DNA of 36,297 nt. Origin: Yokenella regensburgei. GTDB taxonomy: Bacteria > Pseudomonadota > Gammaproteobacteria > Enterobacterales > Enterobacteriaceae. The stretch is taken from positions 2,241-38,537 of the forward strand of contig NZ_JAHVDV010000040.1 of assembly GCF_051486985.1 (NCBI RefSeq). The letters run 5' to 3'. The translations under genes were made by a program, and so were the position numbers. The stretch's first letter is position 1. The number at the start of each line of letters is the position of its first letter. Positions 1 to 31,397 of this stretch are shown here, one piece after another. A model generated the notes under the pieces. The model saw only the letters and a program-made list of their open reading frames with translations. It searched no databases and had not been told where the DNA came from.

Positions 1-693
<693 letters not shown>

Positions 694-716
694 ACAACGC
701 CGAAGCTGTTTTGGCG

Positions 717-820
717 TGAGGTGGTCCCACCTGACCCCATGCCGAACTCAGAAGTGAAACGCCGTAGCGCCGATGGTAGTGTGGGGTCTCCCCATGCGAG
801 AGTAGGGAACTGCCAGGCAT
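717..820 (+). rRNA. rrf: 5S ribosomal RNA, 5'-truncated copy (about 100 of 120 nt present; first ~20 nt and most of the 23S-5S spacer absent)
   Basis: Positions 721-820 match E. coli 5S from ggtggtcccacctgacc.. through the 3' end ..gggaactgccaggcat. The expected 5' segment tgcctggcggcagtagcgcg is replaced by a 23S-distal spacer fragment (..gctgttttggcg) joined through tgag. Confidence 0.8.
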
Positions 821-4279: not shown

Positions 4280-4447
4280 CGCCCAGGCTATTTTGTTCGC
4301 CATTTTGACTTCGGGCAGTTCTGAGACAAAACGCAACACGTTTTAAACGCCCTGGGGTGGTCCCGAAGGGATAAGCGGCTTCCCGAAAGCAAACTGCCTT
4401 CACTAATAACGCCTGGGTTGCCAGGATAAAAAATGGAGCATCTGCAC

Positions 4448-5752
4448 ATGAAAACCCGTACCCAACAAATCGAAGAATTACAAAAAGAATGGACTCACTC
4501 TCGCTGGGAAGGCATTACACGTCCTTACAGCGCGGAAGAGGTGGTGAAATTACGTGGCTCGGTGAACCCGGAATATACGCTGGCGCAGCTGGGTGCCGCG
4601 AAAATGTGGCGTTTATTGCATGGCGAATCGAAGAAAGGCTATGTCAACAGTCTGGGCGCGCTGACCGGTGGGCAGGCACTGCAGCAGGCGAAGGCGGGCG
4701 TGGAAGCCATTTATTTGTCCGGCTGGCAGGTGGCCGCAGATGCGAACCTCGCATCCAGCATGTATCCGGATCAATCGCTCTATCCGGCTAACTCCGTGCC
4801 CTCCGTGGTGGATCGGATCAACAACACCTTCCGCCGCGCGGATCAGATCCAGTGGTCATCCGGTATTGAACCCAACGATCCGCGCTACGTGGACTACTTC
4901 CTGCCGATCGTCGCCGATGCGGAAGCCGGATTTGGCGGTGTACTGAATGCCTTCGAGCTGATGAAATCGATGATTGAAGCCGGTGCAGCGGCGGTTCACT
5001 TCGAAGATCAACTCGCCTCGGTGAAAAAATGCGGACATATGGGCGGCAAGGTACTGGTTCCGACGCAGGAAGCAGTGCAGAAACTGGTGGCCGCACGCCT
5101 GGCGGCAGATGTACTGGGGGTGCCAACGCTGGTGATTGCGCGTACCGATGCTGACGCGGCGGATTTGATCACTTCTGATTGCGACCCTTACGACAGCGCA
5201 TTCATTACCGGTGAGCGCACCAGCGAAGGGTTTTACCGTACTCACGCCGGTATCGAACAGGCTATCAGCCGTGGCCTGGCGTATGCGCCTTATGCTGATT
5301 TAGTGTGGTGTGAAACCTCCACACCGGACCTGGCGCTGGCGAAGCGCTTCGCCGATGCGATTCATGCGAAGTTCCCAGGGAAATTGCTGGCCTACAACTG
5401 TTCTCCCTCATTTAACTGGCAGAAAAATCTGGACGATCAAACCATCGCCAGTTTCCAGCAACAGTTGTCAGACATGGGCTACAAGTATCAGTTTATTACG
5501 CTCGCGGGTATTCACAGCATGTGGTTCAACATGTTCGATCTGGCGCGTTCTTATGCGCAGGGCGAAGGAATGCGTCACTACGTCGAAAAAGTGCAGCAAC
5601 CGGAATTTGCCGCCGCCAAAGAGGGTTATACCTTTGTGTCCCATCAGCAGGAGGTGGGGACGGGTTATTTCGATAAGGTCACCACTATCATCCAGGGTGG
5701 CGTTTCGTCGGTGACGGCGCTGACCGGGTCAACGGAAGAGTCGCAGTTTTAA
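4448..5752 (+). CDS. aceA: isocitrate lyase
   Basis: 434 aa starting [16 protein letters not shown], as E. coli AceA. GGAG lies 6 nt upstream of this ATG. The ATG at 4433 is rejected. Confidence 0.97.
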
Positions 5753-6276
5753 TTTTCCCCTCACCCTAACCCTCTCCCCATTGGGGAGAGGGAACTGGCC
5801 GTGCTCGCCTTTTTTTGTGGGGATTCCCCAACCCTTAGGGAGAGAGGATGACAGGGTTGGGTGCTCAGGATTCGTGCCGTTTTTTTCTCCCTCTCCCCAT
5901 TGGGGAGCGGGAACTGGCCGTGCTCGCTTTTTTGGTGGGGATTTCCCAATCCGCAGGGAGAGAGGATGACAGGGGTGGGTGGTCAGGATTCGTGCCGTTT
6001 TTTTCTCCCTCTCCCCATTGGGGAGCGGGAACTGGCCGTGCTCGCTTTTTTGGTGGGGATTTCCCAACCCTCAGGGAGAGAGGATGACAGGGGTGGGTGG
6101 TCAGGATTCGTGCCGTTTTTTTTCTCCCTCTCCCCATTGGGGAGAGGGAACTGGCCGTGCTCGCCTTTTTTTGTGGGGATTCCCCAACCCTCAGGGAGAG
6201 AGGATGACAGGGTTGGGGGCTCAGGATTCGTGCCGTTTTTTTCTCCCTCGCCCCTCCGGGGAGAGGGCCGGGGTGA
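5751..6276. repeat. tandem array (about 4.5 copies, period 118-119 bp) of a palindromic hairpin plus U-tract unit filling the aceA-aceK spacer
   Basis: The motif cctctccccattggggag(a/c)gggaa recurs at 5761, 5880, 5998 and 6117. The array is bounded by cccctcaccctaaccctctcccc (5751) and its inverted partner ggggagagggccggggtgagggg (6249-6271). Each unit carries hairpins followed by T7-8 runs. Confidence 0.9.
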
Positions 6277-6285
6277 GGGGACGCT

Positions 6286-8007
6286 ATGTCGCGTGGGCTG
6301 GAACTACTGATTGCACAAACCATTCTGCAGGGCTTCGACGCCCAGTATGGTCGTTTTCTGGAGGTTACCTCCGGGGCGCAGCAGCGCTTTGAACAAGCCG
6401 ACTGGCATGCGGTACAGCAGGCGATGAAACAACGCATCCATCTCTACGATCACCATGTGGGGCTGGTGGTGGAACAACTGCGCTGTATTACTGATAACCC
6501 GCGCCCTGACCCCGATTTTCTCCTTCAGGTTAAAGCGCACTATACCCAGCTTCTTCCGGACTATCCGCGCTATGAAATCGCCGAGAGTTTTTTTAACTCC
6601 GTATATTGCCGCCTGTTCGATCACCATGCGCTGACGCCCGAGCGGCTATTCATATTCAGTTCTCAGCCAGAACGCCATTTTCGTGAGCATGCCCGTCCGC
6701 TGGCAAAAGATTTTTACCCTGAAGCTTGTTGGGAAACGCTGCTGACGCGGGTGCTCAGTGATTTACCATTACGCCTGCCCTGGCAGAACCTGACGCGGGA
6801 CGTGGGCTACATCATTGCCCATCTGGTGGAAACCTTCGGTGTTGAGGTGCTACGCAAGGCGCATCTGCATATCGCCAATGAACTCTTTTATCGTAATAAA
6901 GCGGCCTGGCTGGTAGGCAAACTGGTTACGCCTGCGGGGACGCTGCCTTTTTTGTTGCCGATTCACCGTAGCGATGATGGCGAGCTTTTTGTGGATACCT
7001 GTCTGACGGCCATCGCTGAAGCCAGCATCGTATTTGGCTTCGCCCGCTCCTACTTTATGGTTTATGCACCACAGCCTGCCGCGCTGGTGGAGTGGCTGCG
7101 GGAAATCCTGCCCGGCAAAACTACCGCCGAGTTGTATATGGCAATTGGCTGCCAGAAGCATGGCAAAACCGAAAGCTACCGTGAATATCTGAGCTACCTT
7201 GCGGGCAGTGATGAGCAGTTTATCGAAGCGCCGGGCATACGCGGCATGGTGATGCTGGTGTTCACTCTGCCGGGCTTTGATCGGGTGTTTAAAATCATTA
7301 AGGACCAGTTCCCGCCGCAAAAAGAGATGAGTGCCGCCCATGTACGTGCCTGCTATCAGCTTGTCAAAGAGCACGATCGCGTAGGGCGCATGGCGGACAC
7401 CCAGGAGTTCGAAAACTTCGTGCTGGAGAAACGCCGGATAGCACCAGAATTAATGGCATTGCTATTTAAAGAGGCATCACAAAAGATCACCGACCTCGGC
7501 GATCGCATTGTCATCAGCCATCTTTATATCGAGCGGCGGATGGTGCCGCTCAATCTGTGGTTTGAGCGGGTAAGCGGTCAGCAGCTGCGCGATGCCGTTG
7601 AGGAGTATGGTAACGCGATTCGCCAGCTTGCGGCCGCGAATATTTTTCCCGGCGATATGTTGTTTAAAAACTTCGGCGTCACCCGCCACGGGCGTGTGGT
7701 GTTCTACGACTATGACGAAATTTGCTACATGACCGAGGTGAATTTCCGGGATATTCCTCCGCCGCGCTACCCGGAAGACGAGATGAGTGCGGAACCCTGG
7801 TACAGCGTCGCGCCGGGAGATGTGTTCCCGGAGGAATTTCGCCACTGGCTCTGCGCAGACCCGCAAATCGGACCTTTATTTGAGGAGATGCATGCGGACC
7901 TGCTGCGGGCAGATTACTGGCGCGGGTTACAAACACGTATTAAAAACGGCCACGTGGAGGATGTTTACGCCTACCGCCGGCGCCAGCGGTTTTGTATTAG
8001 AAGGTAA
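6286..8007 (+). CDS. aceK: isocitrate dehydrogenase kinase/phosphatase
   Basis: 573 aa, [47 protein letters not shown].., near-identical to the E. coli AceK N-terminus. Confidence 0.97.
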
Positions 8008-22244: not shown

Positions 22245-23825
22245 TCATGTGCCGGTGTGGATGCTTTCCCAGCTCAGCCCGAAACGGGCCAGATATTTGC
22301 GCAGACGGTCGGCATCGTTAGGATTGGCTTTCTTCAGCCGTGAGACGGCAAACAGCTCGCGGCCTGCCCCGGAGAGAGAGGTACTGCGGCGGCACACCTC
22401 CAGCACCGTTTCGAGCTGGCGCTGGTCAAAGAGATCAATCTCTTCATTGAGCGGCGTGGGGGCAGGTATGCTGCGCCAGTTCTGTTGTAAGCGTGTAATC
22501 TCCTCTTCAGCGCCGGCCAGGGTGATACGACCTTGCTCCGCAAGCGTTGCCATACGGGCAATGGACGAACTCAGCTCGCGGAAGTTGCCGCGCCACTGCG
22601 CCTGAGCGGAACAGGCAAAGGCCAGATAGCGCTCACGGGCTTCTTTGTCGAAGCGGATCTGCGTTTGCGCTTCTGCCGAGAAGCGTTGCAGTTCAAATTC
22701 GATATTGGGGGCGATGTCTTCCCGCCGCTCGGCAAGCCCAGGCAGGGCGAAGGTCCACATATTGATACGTGCGTAGAGATCCTCGCGAAACCGTCCTTCC
22801 ATCACCCACTGGTGCATATCCCGGTGGGTTCCGGCGATAAGCTGAAAATCGCTGTGGACCTCTTTATCTGATCCGAAGGGAAAAAAGGTTTTTTCCTCAA
22901 TGGCTTTTAGCAGCATCGCCTGTTCGTCCAGCCCCAGTTCGGCAATTTCATCCAGAAAGAGTACCCCTCCATCCGCCTCGCGCAGTAACCCCTGGCGTGA
23001 TGAGAGCGCCCCGGTAAAAGCGCCTTTCACGTGGCCAAACAGCGTGGACATGGCGTTATCGCCACGCAACGTGGCGCAGTTGACCGCCACCAGTCTGCCC
23101 GCCACCCGGTGCCGAGCCTGACGCAGCTGAAAAATACGTTTCGCCAGGAAGGATTTCCCGGCACCTGTCGGGCCGGTAAGCAGAATCGGGGCCGTGGAGC
23201 GTAAGGCGACACGTTCGATCTGTTCTATAAGCGTATTAAAGGTTGCGTTGCGGGTATCGATACCCGCTTTCAGCAGAGACACCGCGTGCTGCTGCTCGCG
23301 CTGAAAGCGGCTGGTTAAGGTGGCGTAGCGGCTCAAATCCAGGTCGATGACAGAATGTACCCCCGCCGCAACATCTTCTTCTGAGGAGCCTTTGGGTGCC
23401 GGACCGGTTTGCAGAAGGCTGGCGGGCAGATAGCGGGCCTCCGTCAGTAAAAACCAGCAAATCTGTGCCACGTGCGTGCCGGTGGTGATATGCACCAAGT
23501 ACTCTTCGTTGTCGGTATCAAAGTCATAGTGGGTCGCAAAATCGAGAAACGCAGCGTAGACCTCTTCAAAGTCCCAGGGGTCCTGGATCGTCACGCTGTG
23601 CGGACGCACCTCCGTCCCGGGGGAGAGAAGGGCAATATCTTCCGCCAGTTGTTGTGCCATACCGATGTCGCGTGGCTGATGGAGCAGTTCCAGCCGATCG
23701 ACTGGCAAATCCGGCTGCTGACACAACCCGACCGTTGGCCGCCATTTGCGCAGGCGGTTGGCCCGTTTTCCCCGCTTGTCGAGTACCGTACCAAGAACAC
23801 CAATCACTACCCTGCGTTTCTTCAT
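22245..23825 (-). CDS. rtcR: sigma-54-dependent transcriptional activator RtcR (N-terminal CARF domain, AAA+ domain, HTH)
   Basis: 526 aa from MKKRRVVIGVLGTVLDKRGKRANRLRKWRPTVGLCQQ.., colinear with E. coli RtcR including GPTGAGKSFLA and GAFTGA..GLLR motifs. The 20-aa N-terminal extension in the track ORF is rejected. Confidence 0.9.
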   Translation of the reverse strand: MKKRRVVIGVLGTVLDKRGKRANRLRKWRPTVGLCQQPDLPVDRLELLHQPRDIGMAQQLAEDIALLSPGTEVRPHSVTIQDPWDFEEVYAAFLDFATHYDFDTDNEEYLVHITTGTHVAQICWFLLTEARYLPASLLQTGPAPKGSSEEDVAAGVHSVIDLDLSRYATLTSRFQREQQHAVSLLKAGIDTRNATFNTLIEQIERVALRSTAPILLTGPTGAGKSFLAKRIFQLRQARHRVAGRLVAVNCATLRGDNAMSTLFGHVKGAFTGALSSRQGLLREADGGVLFLDEIAELGLDEQAMLLKAIEEKTFFPFGSDKEVHSDFQLIAGTHRDMHQWVMEGRFREDLYARINMWTFALPGLAERREDIAPNIEFELQRFSAEAQTQIRFDKEARERYLAFACSAQAQWRGNFRELSSSIARMATLAEQGRITLAGAEEEITRLQQNWRSIPAPTPLNEEIDLFDQRQLETVLEVCRRSTSLSGAGRELFAVSRLKKANPNDADRLRKYLARFGLSWESIHTGT

Positions 23826-23920
23826 GTTTATCCTGCAAGATAAATTCCGATAACTTAGTATAAAAATACAGCTAAGTGAACACAAGTTAGTTAAAAGCGA
23901 TTGTCATAAAATTACTTATT

Positions 23921-23934
23921 TATCAATAGCTTAA
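23921..23934. promoter_or_regulatory. IHF-like site (tATCAAtagcTTA) between rtcR and the sigma-54 promoter
   Basis: Matches WATCAANNNNTTR. Placement is typical of the IHF-bent DNA upstream of sigma-54 promoters. Confidence 0.35.
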
Positions 23935-23960
23935 ATAAATTATTTTCTTTTTTATCTTTC

Positions 23961-23976
23961 TGGCACGCTTCTGGCA
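23961..23976 (+). promoter_or_regulatory. sigma-54 (-24/-12) promoter driving the SPFH-rtcB-NTase operon
   Basis: TGGCACgcttcTGGCA against the consensus TGGCAC-N5-TTGCA (one mismatch). Divergent from rtcR, as for the E. coli rtcBA promoter. Confidence 0.75.
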
Positions 23977-23987
23977 ATAGCTAATAC

Positions 23988-24270
23988 GTCACGATGCTGA
24001 GCACGCAGGGGGTAAGGCCCCGCCAGCGCACCCGGAACGGTAAGACGTTATCCGCGGGGCGTTCTGTCAGCACCGGGACACATTAAGGGTTCGATTCCCG
24101 ACTCACCCTTCCAGGTGAACACTGGTTGTATTGGTTAATGCGCTGTCAGGTTGGTAACGACAGCAACACACCGGCGCCGATAAGGGTTCCGGGTCGCAGG
24201 CAAAACAGGCTGGCAGGAGTGGCCTGTTCCCCTCCGGCTCCGCACCTGCATCCGTGCCGGTACGTGAAAA
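23988..24270 (+). ncRNA. non-coding, GC-rich leader RNA with tRNA-like motifs (candidate Y-RNA-like / tRNA-mimic RNA) upstream of the SPFH-rtcB operon
   Basis: No ORF on this strand for about 300 nt after the sigma-54 promoter. Canonical tRNA T-arm consensus GGGTTCGATTCCC at 24087-24099. The 3' segment ctcaccc (24103-24109), followed by ttcca, can pair 6/7 with gggtaag (24010-24016) as an acceptor-like stem. A second taagggttcc module sits at 24181. I found no full canonical cloverleaf. Confidence 0.5.
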
Positions 24271-24284
24271 GATAAGGATGAAAA

Positions 24285-25403
24285 ATGAATAAGAAAATCA
24301 CTATTCGTAAAGGACAGTTGGCTCTGCTGGCAAAAGCAGGCGATTACACCCACATTTTTGAGGCAGGAGAGCACCGTCTCCCCAGGTTTGGTAAGCAGGA
24401 GGTCACCTTCGTTGATCTCAATGGCGGGGATGTGGAGAGAGAACTTGCTCACTATCTGCGCCGTTTCCGGCCGGAATGGGTCGACGCCTACTGCCTGACC
24501 GCTGATACCACCGAGCATAACGTTGCTGCGCTGTACCGTAATGACATCCTCGTGGAAATCATACCTCCCGCTTCGCGTCGGATGTTCTGGCAGGACGGCA
24601 GCCTGAGCATTGCATTGCTGGATACTAAGGATGCGCGCGTGCCTGAGCGCATCATGAATGCCGTACTGCAACCACGTACTGCCATTAAGGGACGGGAAGC
24701 CATCCAGACCGTCAACGTCGGAGCATGGCATGTCGGCGTCCTGAAAATTGATGGTGTTACACAGCCGCTGTTGCCACCGGGCATCACCGCCTACTGGCAG
24801 GTGAACCATCTGATTGAGGCGGATGTTGTCGACACGCGTTTGCAGGTGATGGAGGTCACGGGGCAGGAGATCCTGACCAAAGACAAAGTGAATTTGCGCA
24901 TCAACCTGGGCGCAAACTGGCACTACAGTGACGTCTTACGGGCGTTCAGTCAGCTTAGTAAACCGCTGGAGCATCTCTATCGCGAGTTACAGTTTGCTCT
25001 GCGTGAAGCGGTAGGGACCCGTACACTTGATGAACTCCTGGAAGACAAGCAGGTGATCGACAGCGTGGTGAGCGCCCAGGTTAAAACGCGCATGACGCCC
25101 TTTGGCATGGATATCGCCTCGCTGGGGGTGAAGGACATCGTACTGCCAGGCGACATGAAAACTATCCTGGCAAAACTGGTGGAGGCGGAAAAATCAGCAC
25201 AGGCGAATGTGATTCGTCGACGTGAAGAGACAGCGGCGACCCGATCATTACTGAACACCGCAAAAGTGATGGAAAGCAACCCGGTGGCACTGCGCTTAAA
25301 AGAGCTGGAAACCCTGGAAAGAGTGGCGGAGCGTATCGATAAGATCTCCGTCTTCGGTGGCCTGGATAATGTACTGAATGGACTGGTGAATATTAAAGGA
25401 TAA
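24285..25403 (+). CDS. SPFH/band-7 (stomatin/prohibitin-like) domain protein with a ~180-aa non-membrane N-terminal domain of unknown function
   Basis: 372 aa. The C-terminal half (QVMEVTGQEILTKDKVNLRINLGANWHYSDV..TRTLDELLEDKQVIDSVV..PFGMDIASLGVKDIVLPGDMKTILAKLVEAEKSAQANVIRRREETAA) has the SPFH signature. No N-terminal TM helix. AAGGA RBS. Confidence 0.8.
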   Translation: MNKKITIRKGQLALLAKAGDYTHIFEAGEHRLPRFGKQEVTFVDLNGGDVERELAHYLRRFRPEWVDAYCLTADTTEHNVAALYRNDILVEIIPPASRRMFWQDGSLSIALLDTKDARVPERIMNAVLQPRTAIKGREAIQTVNVGAWHVGVLKIDGVTQPLLPPGITAYWQVNHLIEADVVDTRLQVMEVTGQEILTKDKVNLRINLGANWHYSDVLRAFSQLSKPLEHLYRELQFALREAVGTRTLDELLEDKQVIDSVVSAQVKTRMTPFGMDIASLGVKDIVLPGDMKTILAKLVEAEKSAQANVIRRREETAATRSLLNTAKVMESNPVALRLKELETLERVAERIDKISVFGGLDNVLNGLVNIKG

Positions 25404-25407
25404 CCTC

Positions 25408-26634
25408 ATGCAGCATAACGAATTTCAACTGTTAACGGCGCAAAACAGCGCGCCAATAAAAATGTGGACCCACGGAGTTCCGGTCGAGCCTGAGGCGCGT
25501 GCGCAGTTGCAGAACACGGCGAAGATGCCGTTTATTTTTCAGCATCTGGCGGTGATGCCGGATGTGCATCTGGGTAAAGGCTCCACCATCGGCAGCGTGA
25601 TCCCAACCAAAGGGGCCATCATTCCGGCGGCGGTCGGCGTGGATATAGGTTGTGGCATGATCGCTGTACGTACTTCGCTTATGGCAAGCGACCTGCCCGA
25701 TAACCTGAGTGGACTGCGCAGCGCCATTGAGCAGGCGGTGCCGCACGGGCGAACCAGTACCCGCTCCGGGCGTGATAAAGGGGCCTGGGAAACGCCCCCG
25801 CAGGAAGTGGATAACCACTGGTCGCTGCTGTCAGCGCGCTTTAAGCGCCTGACGGATAGCTATCCGCAGTTACTGAAAACCAATAATTATCAGCACCTGG
25901 GTACGCTCGGGACGGGCAACCACTTTATAGAGATCTGCCTGGACGAGCAGCAGCGCGTGTGGGTGATGCTACATAGCGGATCCCGCGGCGTGGGTAACGC
26001 CATCGGTACGCTGTTTATTGCGCTGGCGCAGCAGGATATGCAGCAGCATATTGCCAACCTGCCGGATAAAAACCTGGCCTATTTCCAGGAGGGGAGTAAG
26101 CACTACGACGATTACATGGAGGCGGTCTCATGGGCGCAGGATTTTGCCCGTCATAACCGGGAAGTGATGATGGCGCGCGTGCTGGCGGCGCTGTCACGCA
26201 TCGTGACGAAGCCGTTCATGACGCAGCAGGAAGCGGTGAATTGCCACCATAACTATGTCCAAAAAGAGCGCCATTTTGGTGAAGAGGTGCTGGTGACGCG
26301 CAAAGGGGCGGTCTCCGCGCAAAAAGGCCAGATGGGGATTATTCCCGGTTCGATGGGGGCCAAAAGTTTTATCGTGCGGGGACTGGGGAACGAAGAGAGT
26401 TTCTGCTCCTGTAGTCATGGCGCAGGGCGTGCGATGAGCCGTACGGCTGCGAAAAAGCGCTTCACCGTTGATGACCAGATTCGCGCTACCGCGCATGTTG
26501 AATGTCGTAAAGACAGCGACGTCATTGATGAAATTCCGATGGCCTACAAGGATATCGATGCGGTCATGGCGGCACAGGCGTCGCTGGTGGAAATCGTTCA
26601 CACCCTGCGTCAGGTGGTGTGTGTAAAAGGATAA
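25408..26634 (+). CDS. rtcB: RNA-splicing ligase RtcB (3'-phosphate/5'-hydroxyl RNA ligase)
   Basis: 408 aa, colinear with E. coli RtcB from about residue 10 (MWT.GVPVE..AKMPFIF.H.AVMPDVHLGKGSTIGSVIPTKGAIIPAAVGVDIGCGM.., C-terminal ..IDEIPMAYKDIDAVMAAQ..LRQVVCVKG). 4-nt gap after the SPFH gene. AAAGGA RBS. Confidence 0.95.
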   Translation: MQHNEFQLLTAQNSAPIKMWTHGVPVEPEARAQLQNTAKMPFIFQHLAVMPDVHLGKGSTIGSVIPTKGAIIPAAVGVDIGCGMIAVRTSLMASDLPDNLSGLRSAIEQAVPHGRTSTRSGRDKGAWETPPQEVDNHWSLLSARFKRLTDSYPQLLKTNNYQHLGTLGTGNHFIEICLDEQQRVWVMLHSGSRGVGNAIGTLFIALAQQDMQQHIANLPDKNLAYFQEGSKHYDDYMEAVSWAQDFARHNREVMMARVLAALSRIVTKPFMTQQEAVNCHHNYVQKERHFGEEVLVTRKGAVSAQKGQMGIIPGSMGAKSFIVRGLGNEESFCSCSHGAGRAMSRTAAKKRFTVDDQIRATAHVECRKDSDVIDEIPMAYKDIDAVMAAQASLVEIVHTLRQVVCVKG

Positions 26635-26638
26635 AAAA

Positions 26639-27424
26639 ATGACGGTCAATGGTGTGGATGCTGGCATGCGCGAACGCGTGCGGCAGCATTTGAAGAGGGT
26701 TGAGCAGGACTATGGTGTTCGGGTGCTCTACGCCTGCGAGTCCGGCAGTCGGGGGTGGGGCTTTGCCTCACCGGATAGTGACTATGACGTGCGATTTTTA
26801 TACGTGCATCCACCGGAATGGTACTTACAAGTGGAGACACCACGTGACGTTATCGAACTGCCGATCAATGATGAGCTGGACGTGAGCGGTTGGGAGTGGC
26901 GCAAAGCGCTGGGCTTGCTAAAAAGCGCCAACCCGACACTGATTGAGTGGCTGGATTCGCCTGTCGTTTACCAACGGGAGGAGGCGGTGATAGCGGCGCT
27001 CAGCGCGCAGGTGCCGAAATGGTTTTCTCCCGTGCGGGCGCGCTGGCACTACTACTCTATGGCCCGCAGAAACTTTCACAGCTATTTGCAGGGCGATGAG
27101 GTGCGGTTGAAGAAGTATTTCTATGTGCTGCGTCCGTTACTGGCCGTGCGTTGGGTGGAAGCAGGAAAAGGCGTTCCTCCTATGCGCTTTGCCGAACTGC
27201 TGGCAGGCAGTGAACTGGAGGCGGAGCTGCGTCTGGAGATAAAGGAACTGCTGGCGCGTAAGCAGCGTGCCGGAGAAGCGCAGTATGGTGCACCTTTGCC
27301 ACGCTTGCATGCGTTTATCGCCGCGGAGATCGACAGGGGCACGCTTCCTCCCGTGTTACCAGATAGTCGGGATGGAGAGGTGAAAGCGCTTGATCGGTTG
27401 TTGTATCAAACGGTGATGGCATAA
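26639..27424 (+). CDS. polymerase-beta superfamily nucleotidyltransferase (261 aa), at the position where rtcA follows rtcB in E. coli
   Basis: NTase motif GSRGWGFASPDSDYDVRF (hG[GS]-x9-13-D.D). 4-nt gap after the rtcB stop. AAAGGA RBS. Confidence 0.75.
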   Translation: MTVNGVDAGMRERVRQHLKRVEQDYGVRVLYACESGSRGWGFASPDSDYDVRFLYVHPPEWYLQVETPRDVIELPINDELDVSGWEWRKALGLLKSANPTLIEWLDSPVVYQREEAVIAALSAQVPKWFSPVRARWHYYSMARRNFHSYLQGDEVRLKKYFYVLRPLLAVRWVEAGKGVPPMRFAELLAGSELEAELRLEIKELLARKQRAGEAQYGAPLPRLHAFIAAEIDRGTLPPVLPDSRDGEVKALDRLLYQTVMA

Positions 27425-27427
27425 AAC

Positions 27428-27458
27428 GAGGCCGGACAGGGTTGCCCTTCCGGCCTCT
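27428..27458. terminator. bidirectional terminator between the NTase gene and convergent lysC
   Basis: gaggccggacagggttgcccttccggcctc inverted repeat. Confidence 0.6.
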
Positions 27459-27464
27459 GCCTTG

Positions 27465-28814
27465 TTATTCGAACAGATTATGGTGCAGTTTCTGAACGAC
27501 CTGCTCCGCTTCGCTGCCCGGCACCAGGAAGCACAGGTTGTGGCTGGATGCGCCGTAGCAAATCATACGGATATTGAACGGTTCGAGTACACCAAAAACC
27601 TCTTTGCCGACGCCGCAGGCTTTCGACAGGTCATTACCAATAATCGCCACCAGCGCCAGGTTTTCTTCCACCTCTACCCGGCAGAGTGAAGAGAGCTCGG
27701 TCAACAGCGCCTGCGTCAGCAGGGTATCTCCGGTAGAGGTAGAACCGGTGGTGTCCAGCGTCAGCGCCACGCTCACTTCCGAGGTGGTAATGAGGTCAAC
27801 CGAGATGCTGTGGCGCGCCAGAATGCCGAATACTTCCGCCAGGAAACCGCGGGAGTGCAGCATGTTAAGGCTGTGCAGCGTCAGCAGGGTCTGCTTACGG
27901 CGCAGAGCCAGCGCCCGGAACAGCGGAGGATTGCTGGTTGTATTGCAGACCAGGGTGCCGCCTGCTTTTGGATCTTTACTGGAACCCACGAACACCGGGA
28001 TGTCGCTGCGTACGGCAGGAAGCAGGGTGGCAGGATGCAGCACTTTCGCGCCAAAAGTAGCCATTTCAGCCGCTTCTTCAAAGGCAATTTCGTCGATGCG
28101 TTTGGCCGAAGGCACTACGCGTGGGTCGGTGGTATAGATGCCTGGAACGTCAGTCCAGATATCAACGCGGGCGGCATGCAGGGCTTCACCAAGCAGGGCG
28201 GCGGTATAATCGCTGCCCCCGCGGCCCAGGGTCGTGGTGCGGCCTTTAGCTTCGCTGCCAATAAAGCCCTGGGTGACCACCATGCCGTCGGCGAGTCGCG
28301 GGGCGAGCTGCTGGGTGGCGAGTTCCGCCAGGGCGGCAACGTCCGGCTCGGCACGACCAAAACGATCGCTGGTGCGCATCACTTTACGTACGTCAAACCA
28401 CTGCGACTGAATATCGCGTTCGCGCAGGATTTCAACAAACAGCAGGGTCGACATCAGTTCGCCGTGGCTGACCAGTTCGTCGGTCAGTGCGGTGGAGGTT
28501 GCCAGGGAAGCGGCTTCGGCAAGCGTGGTGATGTTTTCCAGCAGGCGTTCGATCTCTTCCCGGATAACGTTCGGGTTGGCCAGGCGTTCCAGGATATCGA
28601 ACTGAATTTTACGGATAGCATCAAGTTTGACGAAGCGCTCGGTGGACTCCAGCCCTTCGGCGAGCGCAACCAGCAGATTGGTGACGCCAGCAGAAGCGGA
28701 GAGCACCACTAAGCGGGTATTCGGGTCGGCGAGCACCACATCGGCGCTGTGGTTCATGGCATCATAATTTGCCACACTGGTACCGCCAAACTTGGCGACA
28801 ACTAATTCAGACAT
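27465..28814 (-). CDS. lysC: lysine-sensitive aspartokinase III
   Basis: 449 aa, MSELVVAKFGGTSVANYDAMNHSADVVLADPNTRLVVLSASAGVTNLLVAL.., as E. coli LysC. Confidence 0.97.
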   Translation of the reverse strand: MSELVVAKFGGTSVANYDAMNHSADVVLADPNTRLVVLSASAGVTNLLVALAEGLESTERFVKLDAIRKIQFDILERLANPNVIREEIERLLENITTLAEAASLATSTALTDELVSHGELMSTLLFVEILRERDIQSQWFDVRKVMRTSDRFGRAEPDVAALAELATQQLAPRLADGMVVTQGFIGSEAKGRTTTLGRGGSDYTAALLGEALHAARVDIWTDVPGIYTTDPRVVPSAKRIDEIAFEEAAEMATFGAKVLHPATLLPAVRSDIPVFVGSSKDPKAGGTLVCNTTSNPPLFRALALRRKQTLLTLHSLNMLHSRGFLAEVFGILARHSISVDLITTSEVSVALTLDTTGSTSTGDTLLTQALLTELSSLCRVEVEENLALVAIIGNDLSKACGVGKEVFGVLEPFNIRMICYGASSHNLCFLVPGSEAEQVVQKLHHNLFE

Positions 28815-28834: not shown

Positions 28835-29090
28835 TCGATTATTCAGCCATGGCACAAGGGAAGAGCGAAAGGGGTAGGCGCAGCAAACTACGATTACACC
28901 CAGAAGTGCTCCACCACTTGTGAAACGCCCGACTGCGAACGTTTCTGGTGACAACTCAGGGGATTCAGCCCCTGTAGCCGATGGTGATTGCTGCCGTGCA
29001 ATCCACCACCTCGGCGGTGCTCCCCCTCACGTATCGTCTCCGGATGGGCTCCTCGAATACGGTTACCTGGGCAACGCTCCTCTTCTGGCT
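28835..29090 (-). ncRNA. lysine riboswitch (lysC leader, L-box)
   Basis: The minus-strand leader matches the E. coli lysC leader as I recall it: ..gccagaagaggagcgttgccc.. at the 5' end, ..catcggctacaggggctgaatcccctgagttgtcacc.. centrally, and ..ctcttcccttgtgccatggctgaa..cccctgacacgagg before the ATG. Confidence 0.85.
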
Positions 29091-29392
29091 ATTACCTTCG
29101 CCTTTCACACTCTCTGTAGCGAGAAATGCTCTGGTAATACACAAACTCGCCTGTAGGCGGGTAGCGCATATAGAAATAAAGGCTCGCGGCATCCCTGTCA
29201 ATGTTGTGATTATGCGGATTTTTCATGCAGAGGAATCGATTAGAAAAAGGGCTTATGTTGGGCTAATTTATTGCTTTATTTCGCCCGTTTTGCCGCGGCG
29301 TCCGGGAGTGGAAAACAAAAACCATCACAATTTTTGTTCGCAGGCGCTACAATCGACCGCAGTCACAATTCTCAAATCAGAAGAGTATTGCT

Positions 29393-31039: not shown

Positions 31040-31085
31040 TTTTTTTTGCATCCTTAGCGATGCGCCGGATATGCTATAAAAAAAT

Positions 31086-31109
31086 GCCGACATTGCGTCG
31101 GCTTTTTTT
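31086..31109 (+). terminator. pgi rho-independent terminator
   Basis: gccgac-attgc-gtcggc followed by ttttttt. Confidence 0.8.
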
Positions 31110-31397
31110 ATCGGATAAATCTTCTTCCCACTATTAATACCTAATTCCGCGCTCTGAGGTTATTCTGAAAAGCAAGAATAACCGTTTAATGTCCAGGCGT
31201 TATTTTCAGATGTTACCTATACTTCCCAACTGGGTGAGTAATTTTAACAATATGAAATATAAAGGTTTTAAATTAAATATATAATTTTTATATATCTCTT
31301 TTATCCAATTTTCTTAAAACTTCCCGCTACGTTTCCCATTCGATTAATAGCCTGCTTTAGTTGTGTATACTCGTACTCGCCTGATTATTTCAGGCAC

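What the first reader, a model, noticed from the sequence alone, without database searches (positions are those of the whole stretch)
26639..27424. Pol-beta nucleotidyltransferase replaces RtcA downstream of RtcB
The ORF has the GS-x10-DxD minimal NTase motif (GSRGWGFASPDSDYDV). It starts 4 nt after the rtcB stop, which suggests translational coupling. An NTase partner could adenylylate or CCA-repair RNA ends, or modify the ligase, in place of the cyclase step. Functionally this is a different RNA-end-healing logic from RtcA-RtcB.
Basis: partly seen in the sequence, partly recalled or inferred. Interest (0 to 1): 0.6.

Follow-up and report, generated by a model that had tools for sequence, protein, structure and literature searches.

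The report
RlaP nucleotidyltransferase in an rtc RNA-repair operon
The gene after the RNA ligase gene rtcB is a typical member of the known RlaP family, enzymes that add one or two nucleotides to broken RNA ends; it accompanies the cyclase RtcA in many relatives, so the finding is real but ordinary.

Summary
ORF 26639-27424 (+) encodes 261 aa, carries G36-S37-x10-D48-x-D50, and starts 4 nt after the rtcB stop.

It is not a new partner. It matches Pfam PF10127 "RlaP, RNA repair pathway DNA polymerase beta family" end to end (E 8.6e-95). That family was named for sitting next to RNA ligases (Burroughs & Aravind 2016). A Dec 2025 preprint showed that two Pseudomonas members add 1-2 NMPs to RNA 3'-OH ends. 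They prefer Mn2+ and do not label DNA or protein.

The window holds a compact RtcR/sigma54 operon: a structured tRNA-like leader, a slipin (Band-7) gene, rtcB and rlaP. It has no rtcA.

"Replaces RtcA" is true only of gene position.
- The nearest relatives outside the enterobacterial loci surveyed carry Band-7 - Zn-finger - RtcB - RlaP - RtcA.
- 17 of 40 RlaP-bearing loci in an RtcB-anchored survey also carry RtcA.
- At least 1042 complete E. coli genomes have both genes.

RlaP also occurs without rtcB. About 21 of 80 enterobacterial species loci, and the one E. coli locus examined, show slipin directly followed by rlaP.

Verdict: already known, a well-conserved ortholog, low interest. How RlaP's 3'-OH product would feed RtcB, which needs a 3'-phosphate, remains open.

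The parts
22245..23825 (-). rtcR, a sigma54-dependent activator with a CARF-type RtcR domain. The likely start is ATG 23825; the mechanical ORF extends to TTG 23885.
   Evidence: Pfam RtcR + Sigma54_activat. NCBIfam RNA_repair_RtcR equivalog, 820 bits against a cutoff of 650. 61% identical to E. coli RtcR. The gene call in the identical public contig gives 526 aa.
23961..23976 (+). Sigma54-type promoter TGGCACgcttcTGGCA, with the -24 GG and -12 GC elements.
   Evidence: One mismatch to TGGCAC-N5-TTGCW. The same element lies about 135-142 nt from the rtcR start in 45 of the 46 aligned slipin-bearing loci.
23988..24262 (+). Structured leader RNA of about 275-300 nt. It contains a tRNA T-arm-like hairpin, GGG-TTCGATT-CCC, at 24087-24099. 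[quoted passage not shown] The ends given are estimates.
   Evidence: Alignment of 47 loci (A2). RNAalifold gives 40 pairs, 29 with compensatory changes. 97.4% of cells are paired against 40-53% in slid controls, and 0 of 500 shuffles reach the observed values. The RNA is present only where the slipin gene is present. No Rfam or ARAGORN hit.
24285..25403 (+). Slipin / SPFH (Band-7) protein, 372 aa.
   Evidence: Pfam Band_7 E 1e-21. RefSeq annotates the E. coli ortholog as 'slipin family protein'. It is followed by rtcB after 4 nt.
25408..26634 (+). rtcB, the 3'-phosphate RNA ligase.
   Evidence: Pfam RtcB E 1.1e-132. 72.5% identical to E. coli RtcB.
26639..27424 (+). rlaP, an RNA ligase-associating Pol-beta nucleotidyltransferase (the finding).
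   Evidence: PF10127 E 8.6e-95, profile positions 1-248 of 249. phrog_14344 'nucleotidyltransferase' E 2.6e-110. Catalytic D48/D50/D81 are invariant. The AlphaFold model has pLDDT 96.6 and shows an N-terminal alpha/beta NTase domain and a C-terminal helical domain.
27418..27461 (.). GC-rich hairpin between the convergent genes rlaP and lysC; probably a shared terminator.
   Evidence: MFE -28.1 kcal/mol, z = -4.6 against shuffles. The lysC stop is at 27465 on the minus strand.

Best explanation
The ORF encodes an RlaP-family (PF10127) Pol-beta nucleotidyltransferase. It is the last gene of an RtcR/sigma54-controlled RNA-repair operon: structured tRNA-like leader, slipin, rtcB, rlaP.

Proposed sequence of events:
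1. RNA breakage produces fragments ending in 2',3'-cyclic phosphate. These bind the RtcR CARF domain. This step is shown in Salmonella and inferred here.
2. RtcR activates the sigma54 promoter at 23961-23976. The genes are 4 nt apart and are expressed together.
3. RtcB seals 3'-P or 2',3'-cyclic-P ends to 5'-OH ends.
4. RlaP uses D48, D50 and D81 with Mn2+ to add one or two untemplated NMPs to RNA 3'-OH ends. This is shown in vitro for two Pseudomonas homologs and inferred here from family membership and invariant catalytic residues.
5. The physiological purpose is the least certain step. The preprint's authors propose that RlaP replaces nucleotides trimmed from broken tRNAs, so that later ligation can yield a working tRNA.

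RlaP is an accessory to the rtc system, not a substitute for the cyclase RtcA. This operon is the widespread Band-7 - RtcB - RlaP - RtcA arrangement without rtcA.
For: Family: PF10127 E 8.6e-95, full length. 5114 clusters (50% identity) match at E<=1e-3. There are 24 invariant residues, including G36, S37, D48, D50 and D81.

Gene quality: dN/dS about 0.06-0.12.

Fold: high-confidence two-domain model matching the NTase plus helical-domain description of the PfRlaP crystal structure.

Activity of homologs: RNA 3'-OH acceptor, 1-2 NMPs added, Mn2+/Co2+ preferred, no labelling of DNA or protein (PMC12776372).

Operon: rtcR equivalog, conserved sigma54 site, 4-nt gene spacing, terminal hairpin.

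Conservation: the same island occurs in 80 enterobacterial species.

Accessory rather than substitute: relatives at 57% and 52% identity lie in Band_7 - zf - RtcB - RlaP - (HEAT) - RtcA operons. RlaP and RtcA share a locus in 17 of 40 RlaP-bearing loci of an RtcB-anchored survey. The P. aeruginosa rtc locus also has an embedded SPFH gene (PMC13086221).
Against: The activity is known only in vitro, from one preprint, for Pseudomonas proteins whose identity to this one I could not measure.

The product ends in 3'-OH, which RtcB cannot ligate. The authors flag this themselves, and nothing in this operon (no kinase, no RtcA) resolves it.

NTP choice is nearly unspecific, so most additions would be wrong.

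About 21 of 80 enterobacterial loci, and the E. coli locus examined, have slipin followed directly by rlaP with no rtcB between them. RlaP therefore does not need a ligase encoded in cis.

No in vivo phenotype is reported.
Confidence: 0.7

Rival explanations
1. One reading: the NTase functionally replaces the RtcA cyclase step. It would prepare ends for RtcB by adenylylation or CCA repair, or it would modify the ligase itself.
For: rlaP occupies the position that rtcA holds in E. coli K-12, immediately after rtcB. No rtcA lies in the window or within 6 kb of rlaP in 80 enterobacterial loci.
Against: RlaP and RtcA co-occur in the closest relatives outside the enterobacterial loci surveyed, in 17 of 40 RlaP loci, in the Pseudomonas operons and in at least 1042 E. 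coli genomes. Homologs act on 3'-OH ends, not 3'-P ends, and do not label E. coli proteins. Their product cannot be ligated by RtcB.
Confidence: 0.08
2. RlaP works mainly with the slipin and the tRNA-like leader RNA, independently of RtcB. For example, it could extend or mature the 3' end of the b7a-like RNA, or of tRNAs held on a slipin scaffold.
For: Slipin directly followed by rlaP, with no rtcB, in about 21 of 80 species loci. The E. coli locus examined, from a species in which 30% of complete genomes carry rlaP, has leader - slipin - rlaP with neither rtcR nor rtcB. Catalytic residues are kept in those loci. A related tRNA-like Y RNA undergoes CCA addition in M. smegmatis (PMC4201824).
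Against: 24 of 80 loci have rtcB - rlaP with no slipin and no leader, so RlaP does not need them either. RlaP also occurs beside Thg1, inside a type I restriction-modification operon and in jumbo phages. There are no experimental data.
Confidence: 0.14
3. Short tailing by RlaP serves regulation or decay rather than repair. It could mark unrepairable fragments for 3' exonucleases, or change the pool of fragments sensed by RtcR.
For: Low NTP specificity and a limit of 1-2 nt suit faithful repair poorly. PNPase is proposed to clear tRNA halves only after their ends are converted to 3'-OH.
Against: Tails of 1-2 nt are short for an exonuclease toehold. [quoted passage not shown] RlaP treatment raised aminoacylation of a repaired tRNA that lacked one nucleotide.
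Confidence: 0.06
4. It is a small-molecule or defence nucleotidyltransferase unrelated to RNA ends: an aminoglycoside ANT-like enzyme, an MNT toxin-antitoxin component, or a HalB/CD-NTase-like signal synthase.
For: The best solved-structure matches are ANT(4')/KNTase and the Hailong protein HalB.
Against: Those matches are only superfamily level: TM about 0.44-0.48, 12-14% identity, rmsd 7-11 A. There is no Pfam hit other than RlaP at E<=0.01, no NCBIfam hit, only a marginal PADLOC hit at E 0.005, and no HEPN or effector neighbour.
Confidence: 0.02

Closest known systems
PfRlaP / PaRlaP (Pseudomonas fluorescens and P. aeruginosa RlaP; Carruthers, Fatma & Huang, bioRxiv Dec 2025, PMC12776372)
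   Same: Same Pfam family (PF10127). Same position immediately downstream of rtcB in an RtcR-controlled operon. The three catalytic Asp residues are conserved. Same two-domain architecture: NTase domain plus helical domain.
   Different: The Pseudomonas operons continue with rtcA; this one ends at rlaP. I could not obtain the Pseudomonas sequences, so the percent identity is unknown. The crystal structure is not in the PDB copies searched.
Band-7 / b7a-tRNA / RtcB / RlaP repair systems predicted by Burroughs & Aravind (NAR 2016). The paper is not held here and is cited through PMC12776372, PMC6514570 and bioRxiv 10.1101/312249.
   Same: The same component set: Band-7 protein, an adjacent tRNA-like non-coding RNA, RtcB ligase and RlaP nucleotidyltransferase.
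   Different: ARAGORN does not call the RNA here as a tRNA. Only a T-arm-like hairpin remains, inside a covarying RNA of about 300 nt. The small zinc-finger gene and rtcA seen in relatives are missing.
E. coli K-12 rtcR-rtcBA operon
   Same: Orthologous RtcR (61% identity) and RtcB (72.5%), a sigma54 promoter, and divergent rtcR.
   Different: A different chromosomal site: yjbD-lysC here, glpR-malT in E. coli. No rtcA. Extra leader RNA, slipin and rlaP.
Salmonella rsr-yrlBA-rtcBA operon
   Same: An RtcR-regulated operon that pairs RtcB with a scaffold-type protein and a tRNA-mimicking non-coding RNA.
   Different: The scaffold is Ro60/Rsr with Y RNAs rather than a slipin with a b7a-like RNA. 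It has RtcA and lacks RlaP.
ANT(4')/kanamycin nucleotidyltransferase and Hailong HalB (nearest solved folds)
   Same: A Pol-beta NTase core followed by a helical domain.
   Different: 12-14% identity and TM about 0.45. Their substrates are aminoglycosides or dATP, and they belong to different sequence families.

Membership tests
RlaP (Pfam PF10127) | Full-length match to the family profile above the gathering score | tested here: met
   317.6 bits against a cutoff of 23; profile positions 1-248 of 249.
RlaP (Pfam PF10127) | Pol-beta NTase catalytic signature: G-S, D-x-D and a third Asp | tested here: met
   G36, S37, D48, D50 and D81 are invariant among 49 diverse representatives and are kept in 78 of 80 orthologs.
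RlaP (Pfam PF10127) | N-terminal NTase domain plus C-terminal helical domain, with a C-terminal helix packing back, as in the PfRlaP crystal structure | tested here: inconclusive
   The AlphaFold model (pLDDT 96.6) has alpha/beta residues 1-113, then helices 115-260 including a terminal helix at 248-260. This agrees with the text description, but no coordinates were available for superposition.
RlaP (Pfam PF10127) | Encoded next to an RNA ligase | tested here: met
   4 nt downstream of rtcB.
RlaP (Pfam PF10127) | Adds 1-2 NMPs to RNA 3'-OH ends and prefers Mn2+ | not testable with these tools
   Known only for the Pseudomonas homologs.
Canonical rtcR-rtcBA operon | RtcR activator, sigma54 promoter and RtcB | tested here: met
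Canonical rtcR-rtcBA operon | RtcA cyclase encoded in the operon | tested here: not met
   No RtcA-like sequence in the window (best tblastn E 0.19). None in 80 related loci.
Band-7 / b7a-tRNA RNA-repair system (Burroughs & Aravind 2016) | SPFH/Band-7 protein encoded beside RtcB | tested here: met
   Band_7 E 1e-21, 4 nt upstream of rtcB.
Band-7 / b7a-tRNA RNA-repair system (Burroughs & Aravind 2016) | Adjacent non-coding RNA that strongly resembles a tRNA | tested here: inconclusive
   A covarying structured RNA with a T-arm-like hairpin is present, but ARAGORN and Rfam find nothing. Relatives have ARAGORN-callable tRNA-like genes in the same place. The leader profile weakly matches one of them (E 9e-5).
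Aminoglycoside/lincosamide nucleotidyltransferases (ANT, Lnu) | Sequence-family membership | tested here: not met
   No Pfam or NCBIfam hit. Only fold-level similarity: TM about 0.45, 13% identity.
MNT-HEPN toxin-antitoxin minimal NTases | Small NTP_transf_2 protein paired with a HEPN partner | tested here: not met
   No NTP_transf_2 hit at E<=0.01. The neighbours are rtcB and lysC. No significant PADLOC hit.
CCA-adding / poly(A) polymerase class II NTases | PolyA_pol head domain | tested here: not met
   No such Pfam hit at E<=0.01.

The most novel reading that the evidence does not exclude
In Enterobacterales the working unit may be the trio of tRNA-like leader RNA, slipin and RlaP, with RtcB, RtcA and even RtcR dispensable in cis. 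RlaP's true substrate would then be the leader-derived tRNA mimic, or tRNAs held on a slipin scaffold. That would make the trio a ligase-independent RNA end-remodelling or sensing particle, not a step before ligation.
Probability: 0.13. Interest if true: 0.55.

Novelty: already known. Interest (0 to 1): 0.22.

Why it matters
The value here is correct annotation. Genes labelled only "nucleotidyltransferase domain-containing protein" in this and many enterobacterial genomes are RlaP. About 30% of complete E. coli genomes carry one. They belong to an RtcR-type RNA-repair module that also includes a slipin and an unannotated structured tRNA-like RNA.

The comparative picture is useful for designing experiments on two open questions. 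The first is what RlaP does in vivo. The second is how its 3'-OH product is reconciled with RtcB's need for a 3'-phosphate. The relevant facts are that RlaP co-occurs with RtcA in some lineages, that RtcA is lost in Enterobacterales, and that RtcB is lost in many of them. The finding does not reveal a new kind of system.

Tried and rejected
- PDB sequence search with the protein gave no hit at E<=0.01, so the PfRlaP structure could not be used. Foldseek gave only superfamily-level matches.
- NCBIfam has no model for this protein.
- PADLOC gave only a marginal hit, PDC-S09 at E 0.005 over residues 1-54, which I treat as noise.
- Rfam (gathering scores on the whole window; E<=10 on 23850-24300) and ARAGORN found nothing in the leader.
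- Burroughs & Aravind 2016 is not held by DOI or PMC id. It is cited through papers that quote it.
- The preprint has no supplements held, and a cluster look-up of ten representatives gave no organism names. I therefore could not measure identity to PfRlaP or PaRlaP.
- One search was a mistaken alignment and gave nothing.
- The megablast search of E. coli with the whole island found only rtcB at 73.6% identity. The 'distant' mode was needed to find rlaP.
- Rejected: antibiotic NTase, MNT toxin-antitoxin and CCA-adding enzyme (no profile support).
- Rejected: functional replacement of RtcA (contradicted by co-occurrence data).

Full report
**Observation**

It encodes 261 aa from an ATG. The rtcB stop TAA is at 26632-26634 and the ATG at 26639, which leaves AAAA between them. 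An AAGGA ribosome-binding sequence lies at 26627-26631. The motif GSRGWGFASPDSDYDV corresponds to G36 S37 ... D48 x D50.

The upstream gene is a true RtcB. Its Pfam match has E 1.1e-132, and it is 72.5% identical to E. coli RtcB. tblastn with E. coli RtcA finds nothing in the window; the best E-value is 0.19.

**Identity**

The protein matches Pfam PF10127, "RlaP, RNA repair pathway DNA polymerase beta family", over profile positions 1-248 of 249, with E 8.6e-95. It also matches phrog_14344 'nucleotidyltransferase' at E 2.6e-110. Nothing else reaches E<=0.01 in Pfam. NCBIfam has no model for it, and PADLOC gives only a marginal hit.

The family is large. 5114 clusters at 50% identity match at E<=1e-3. 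An alignment of 49 representatives down to 36% identity has 24 invariant positions, including G36, S37, D48, D50 and D81, the Pol-beta catalytic set.

dN/dS against eight orthologs is about 0.06-0.12. An AlphaFold model built from that alignment is very confident, with pLDDT 96.6. It shows an alpha/beta NTase domain followed by a helical domain. The nearest solved structures are ANT(4')/KNTase and the Hailong protein HalB, at TM about 0.45 and 12-14% identity. That is superfamily-level similarity only.

**What is known about the family**

[quoted passage not shown] That paper is not held here; the statement comes from PMC12776372 and PMC6514570.

A preprint of December 2025 (Carruthers, Fatma & Huang, PMC12776372) characterised the P. 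fluorescens and P. aeruginosa enzymes, whose genes lie between rtcB and rtcA. Its main results are:
- The enzymes label RNA but not DNA or protein.
- They require a 3'-OH acceptor and add one or two NMPs with little NTP preference.
- They prefer Mn2+ or Co2+ and favour the broken end of a nicked-tRNA mimic.
- Treatment of a tRNA lacking one anticodon-loop nucleotide before ligation partly restored its aminoacylation.
- A 2.1 A crystal structure shows an NTase domain plus a helical domain.

The authors note an unsolved problem. The product ends in 3'-OH, whereas RtcB needs a 3'-phosphate.

**The operon in the window**

The parts, in order along the sequence, are:
1. rtcR on the minus strand at 22245-23825. 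It hits the NCBIfam RtcR equivalog at 820 bits against a cutoff of 650.
2. A sigma54 promoter, TGGCACgcttcTGGCA, at 23961-23976. It lies at the same distance from rtcR in 45 of the 46 aligned slipin-bearing loci.
3. A leader of about 300 nt.
4. A slipin/Band-7 gene at 24285-25403.
5. rtcB at 25408-26634.
6. rlaP at 26639-27424.
7. A strong hairpin, -28.1 kcal/mol with z = -4.6, shared with convergent lysC.

The gaps between the three coding genes are 4 nt each. The island lies between yjbD and lysC, not at the glpR-malT site of the E. coli rtcBA operon.

**Does RlaP replace RtcA?**

Only in gene position. Four lines of evidence bear on this.
- An RlaP-anchored survey of species-representative genomes gave 80 enterobacterial loci at 53-92% identity. 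The closest are Enterobacteriaceae UBA3516 and Phytobacter. None has RtcA within 6 kb.
- The nearest relatives outside that set, at 57% and 52% identity, lie in operons of the form rtcR | Band_7 - zf_Tbcl - RtcB - RlaP - (HEAT) - RtcA.
- An RtcB-anchored metagenome survey is unbiased for RlaP. Among the 80 closest RtcB genes, 40 loci carry RlaP, and 17 of those also carry RtcA. Eleven have RtcA alone. All 14 loci with RtcB at least 82% identical, room downstream and an rtcR gene carry RlaP without RtcA.
- 1630 of 5426 complete E. coli genomes carry rlaP, and 4838 carry at least 80% of rtcR-rtcBA. At least 1042 genomes therefore have both.

The P. aeruginosa rtc locus likewise holds an SPFH gene together with RtcA, RtcB and RtcR (PMC13086221). 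The window's operon is thus the common Band-7 - RtcB - RlaP - RtcA arrangement without rtcA. It is not a different healing logic.

**Modularity**

Among the 80 RlaP-anchored loci the architectures are:
- about 26 with slipin - rtcB - rlaP, as in the window;
- about 21 with slipin directly followed by rlaP and no room for rtcB (Citrobacter, the Klebsiella oxytoca group, Kluyvera, Hafnia, Lonsdalea, Mangrovibacter);
- about 24 with rtcB - rlaP and no slipin (Serratia, Erwinia, Pantoea, Leclercia, Photorhabdus);
- 9 with rlaP alone or on truncated contigs.

The E. coli O111 locus has leader - slipin - rlaP - zeta toxin with neither rtcR nor rtcB. Catalytic residues are kept throughout. The gene upstream of rlaP, whichever it is, mostly ends within 17 nt of the rlaP start (58 of 73 scored loci). 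RlaP therefore does not depend on a ligase encoded in cis. This leaves room for an RtcB-independent role.

**The leader RNA**

This lies outside the finding's coordinates but belongs to the same operon. The 300 nt between the promoter and the slipin gene is a conserved structured RNA.
- In an alignment of 47 loci, RNAalifold predicts 40 pairs, 29 of them with compensatory changes.
- 97.4% of cells are paired, against 40-53% when the 3' partners are slid by 1-3 columns. None of 500 shuffles reaches the observed values.
- It contains an invariant tRNA T-arm-like hairpin, GGG-TTCGATT-CCC, at 24087-24099.
- It occurs only where the slipin gene occurs.
- Rfam and ARAGORN do not detect it.

In more distant relatives, ARAGORN calls a tRNA-like gene in the equivalent leader, often with an unusual anticodon. 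[quoted passage not shown] The enterobacterial RNA looks like a divergent, larger version of it.

**Mechanism and confidence**

Family membership is essentially certain. Template-independent addition of 1-2 nucleotides to RNA 3'-OH ends is likely. It is inferred from two characterised homologs and from invariant catalytic residues.

RtcR/sigma54 control is likely from the conserved promoter and the divergent activator. [quoted passage not shown]

The physiological role is the weakest step. The proposal that RlaP restores nucleotides removed by trimming ribotoxins before ligation faces the problem of incompatible end chemistry.

The rival explanations, with the evidence for and against each, are set out separately under the rival explanations.

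**Verdict**

The feature is an already known kind of gene in an already described kind of operon. Interest is low. The residual value lies in the comparative data on loss of RtcA and RtcB, and in the unannotated, strongly covarying tRNA-like leader RNA.

Noticed in passing
window 23988-24262 (+); T-arm-like hairpin at 24087-24099: A structured RNA of about 300 nt lies between the sigma54 promoter and the slipin gene. It has strong covariation: 29 of 40 pairs carry compensatory changes, and 97.4% of cells are paired against 40-53% in slid controls. It is absent from Rfam and is not called by ARAGORN. It occurs only together with the slipin gene. [quoted passage not shown]
   Followed up: partly
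L009, L014-L020, L031, L036, L038, L049, L053, L066, L079-L083 (for example L009: slipin 4868-5992, rlaP 6001-6783): Many Enterobacterales (Citrobacter, the Klebsiella oxytoca group, Kluyvera, Hafnia, Lonsdalea, Mangrovibacter, Brenneria) have rtcR - leader - slipin - rlaP with no rtcB at all. RlaP keeps its catalytic residues in these loci.
   Followed up: partly
L084 (E. coli O111 NZ_CP077526.1), 4330-7745: About 30% of complete E. coli genomes (1630 of 5426) carry rlaP. In the one locus examined it sits at the yjbD-lysC site with the leader RNA, a retained sigma54-like TGGCACgcttcTCGCA and a slipin gene, plus a zeta-toxin family gene. That locus has no local rtcR or rtcB, which suggests control in trans by the RtcR of the separate rtcBA locus.
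   Followed up: partly
L091 1578-1976; L092 4372-4725: Relatives outside the enterobacterial loci surveyed carry a small zf_Tbcl zinc-finger gene between Band_7 and rtcB. One also has a HEAT-repeat gene between rlaP and rtcA. Both genes are absent from the window's operon.
   Followed up: no
L088 4112-5870; L087 1287-10344; L085 and other phiKZ-like phages: RlaP homologs occur in other contexts. One overlaps a Thg1-family tRNA 5'-end repair gene. One sits inside a type I restriction-modification operon on an IncP plasmid. Others occur in 87 phage records, mostly Pseudomonas jumbo phages, at about 44% identity.
   Followed up: no
window 24285-25403: The slipin has an N-terminal region of about 140 aa before the Band_7 domain. 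I saw no obvious hydrophobic membrane segment on reading the sequence, so it may be a soluble SPFH scaffold. No transmembrane prediction was run.
   Followed up: no
window 22245-23885 (-): The mechanical ORF for rtcR starts at TTG 23885. Homology and the public gene call place the start at ATG 23825 (526 aa).
   Followed up: yes
window 1-818; 28896-29092 (-); 31073-31226 (-): Other RNA features in the window: the 3' end of 23S rRNA and a 5S rRNA, the lysine riboswitch upstream of lysC, and the enterobacterial sRNA STnc430 downstream of pgi.
   Followed up: no
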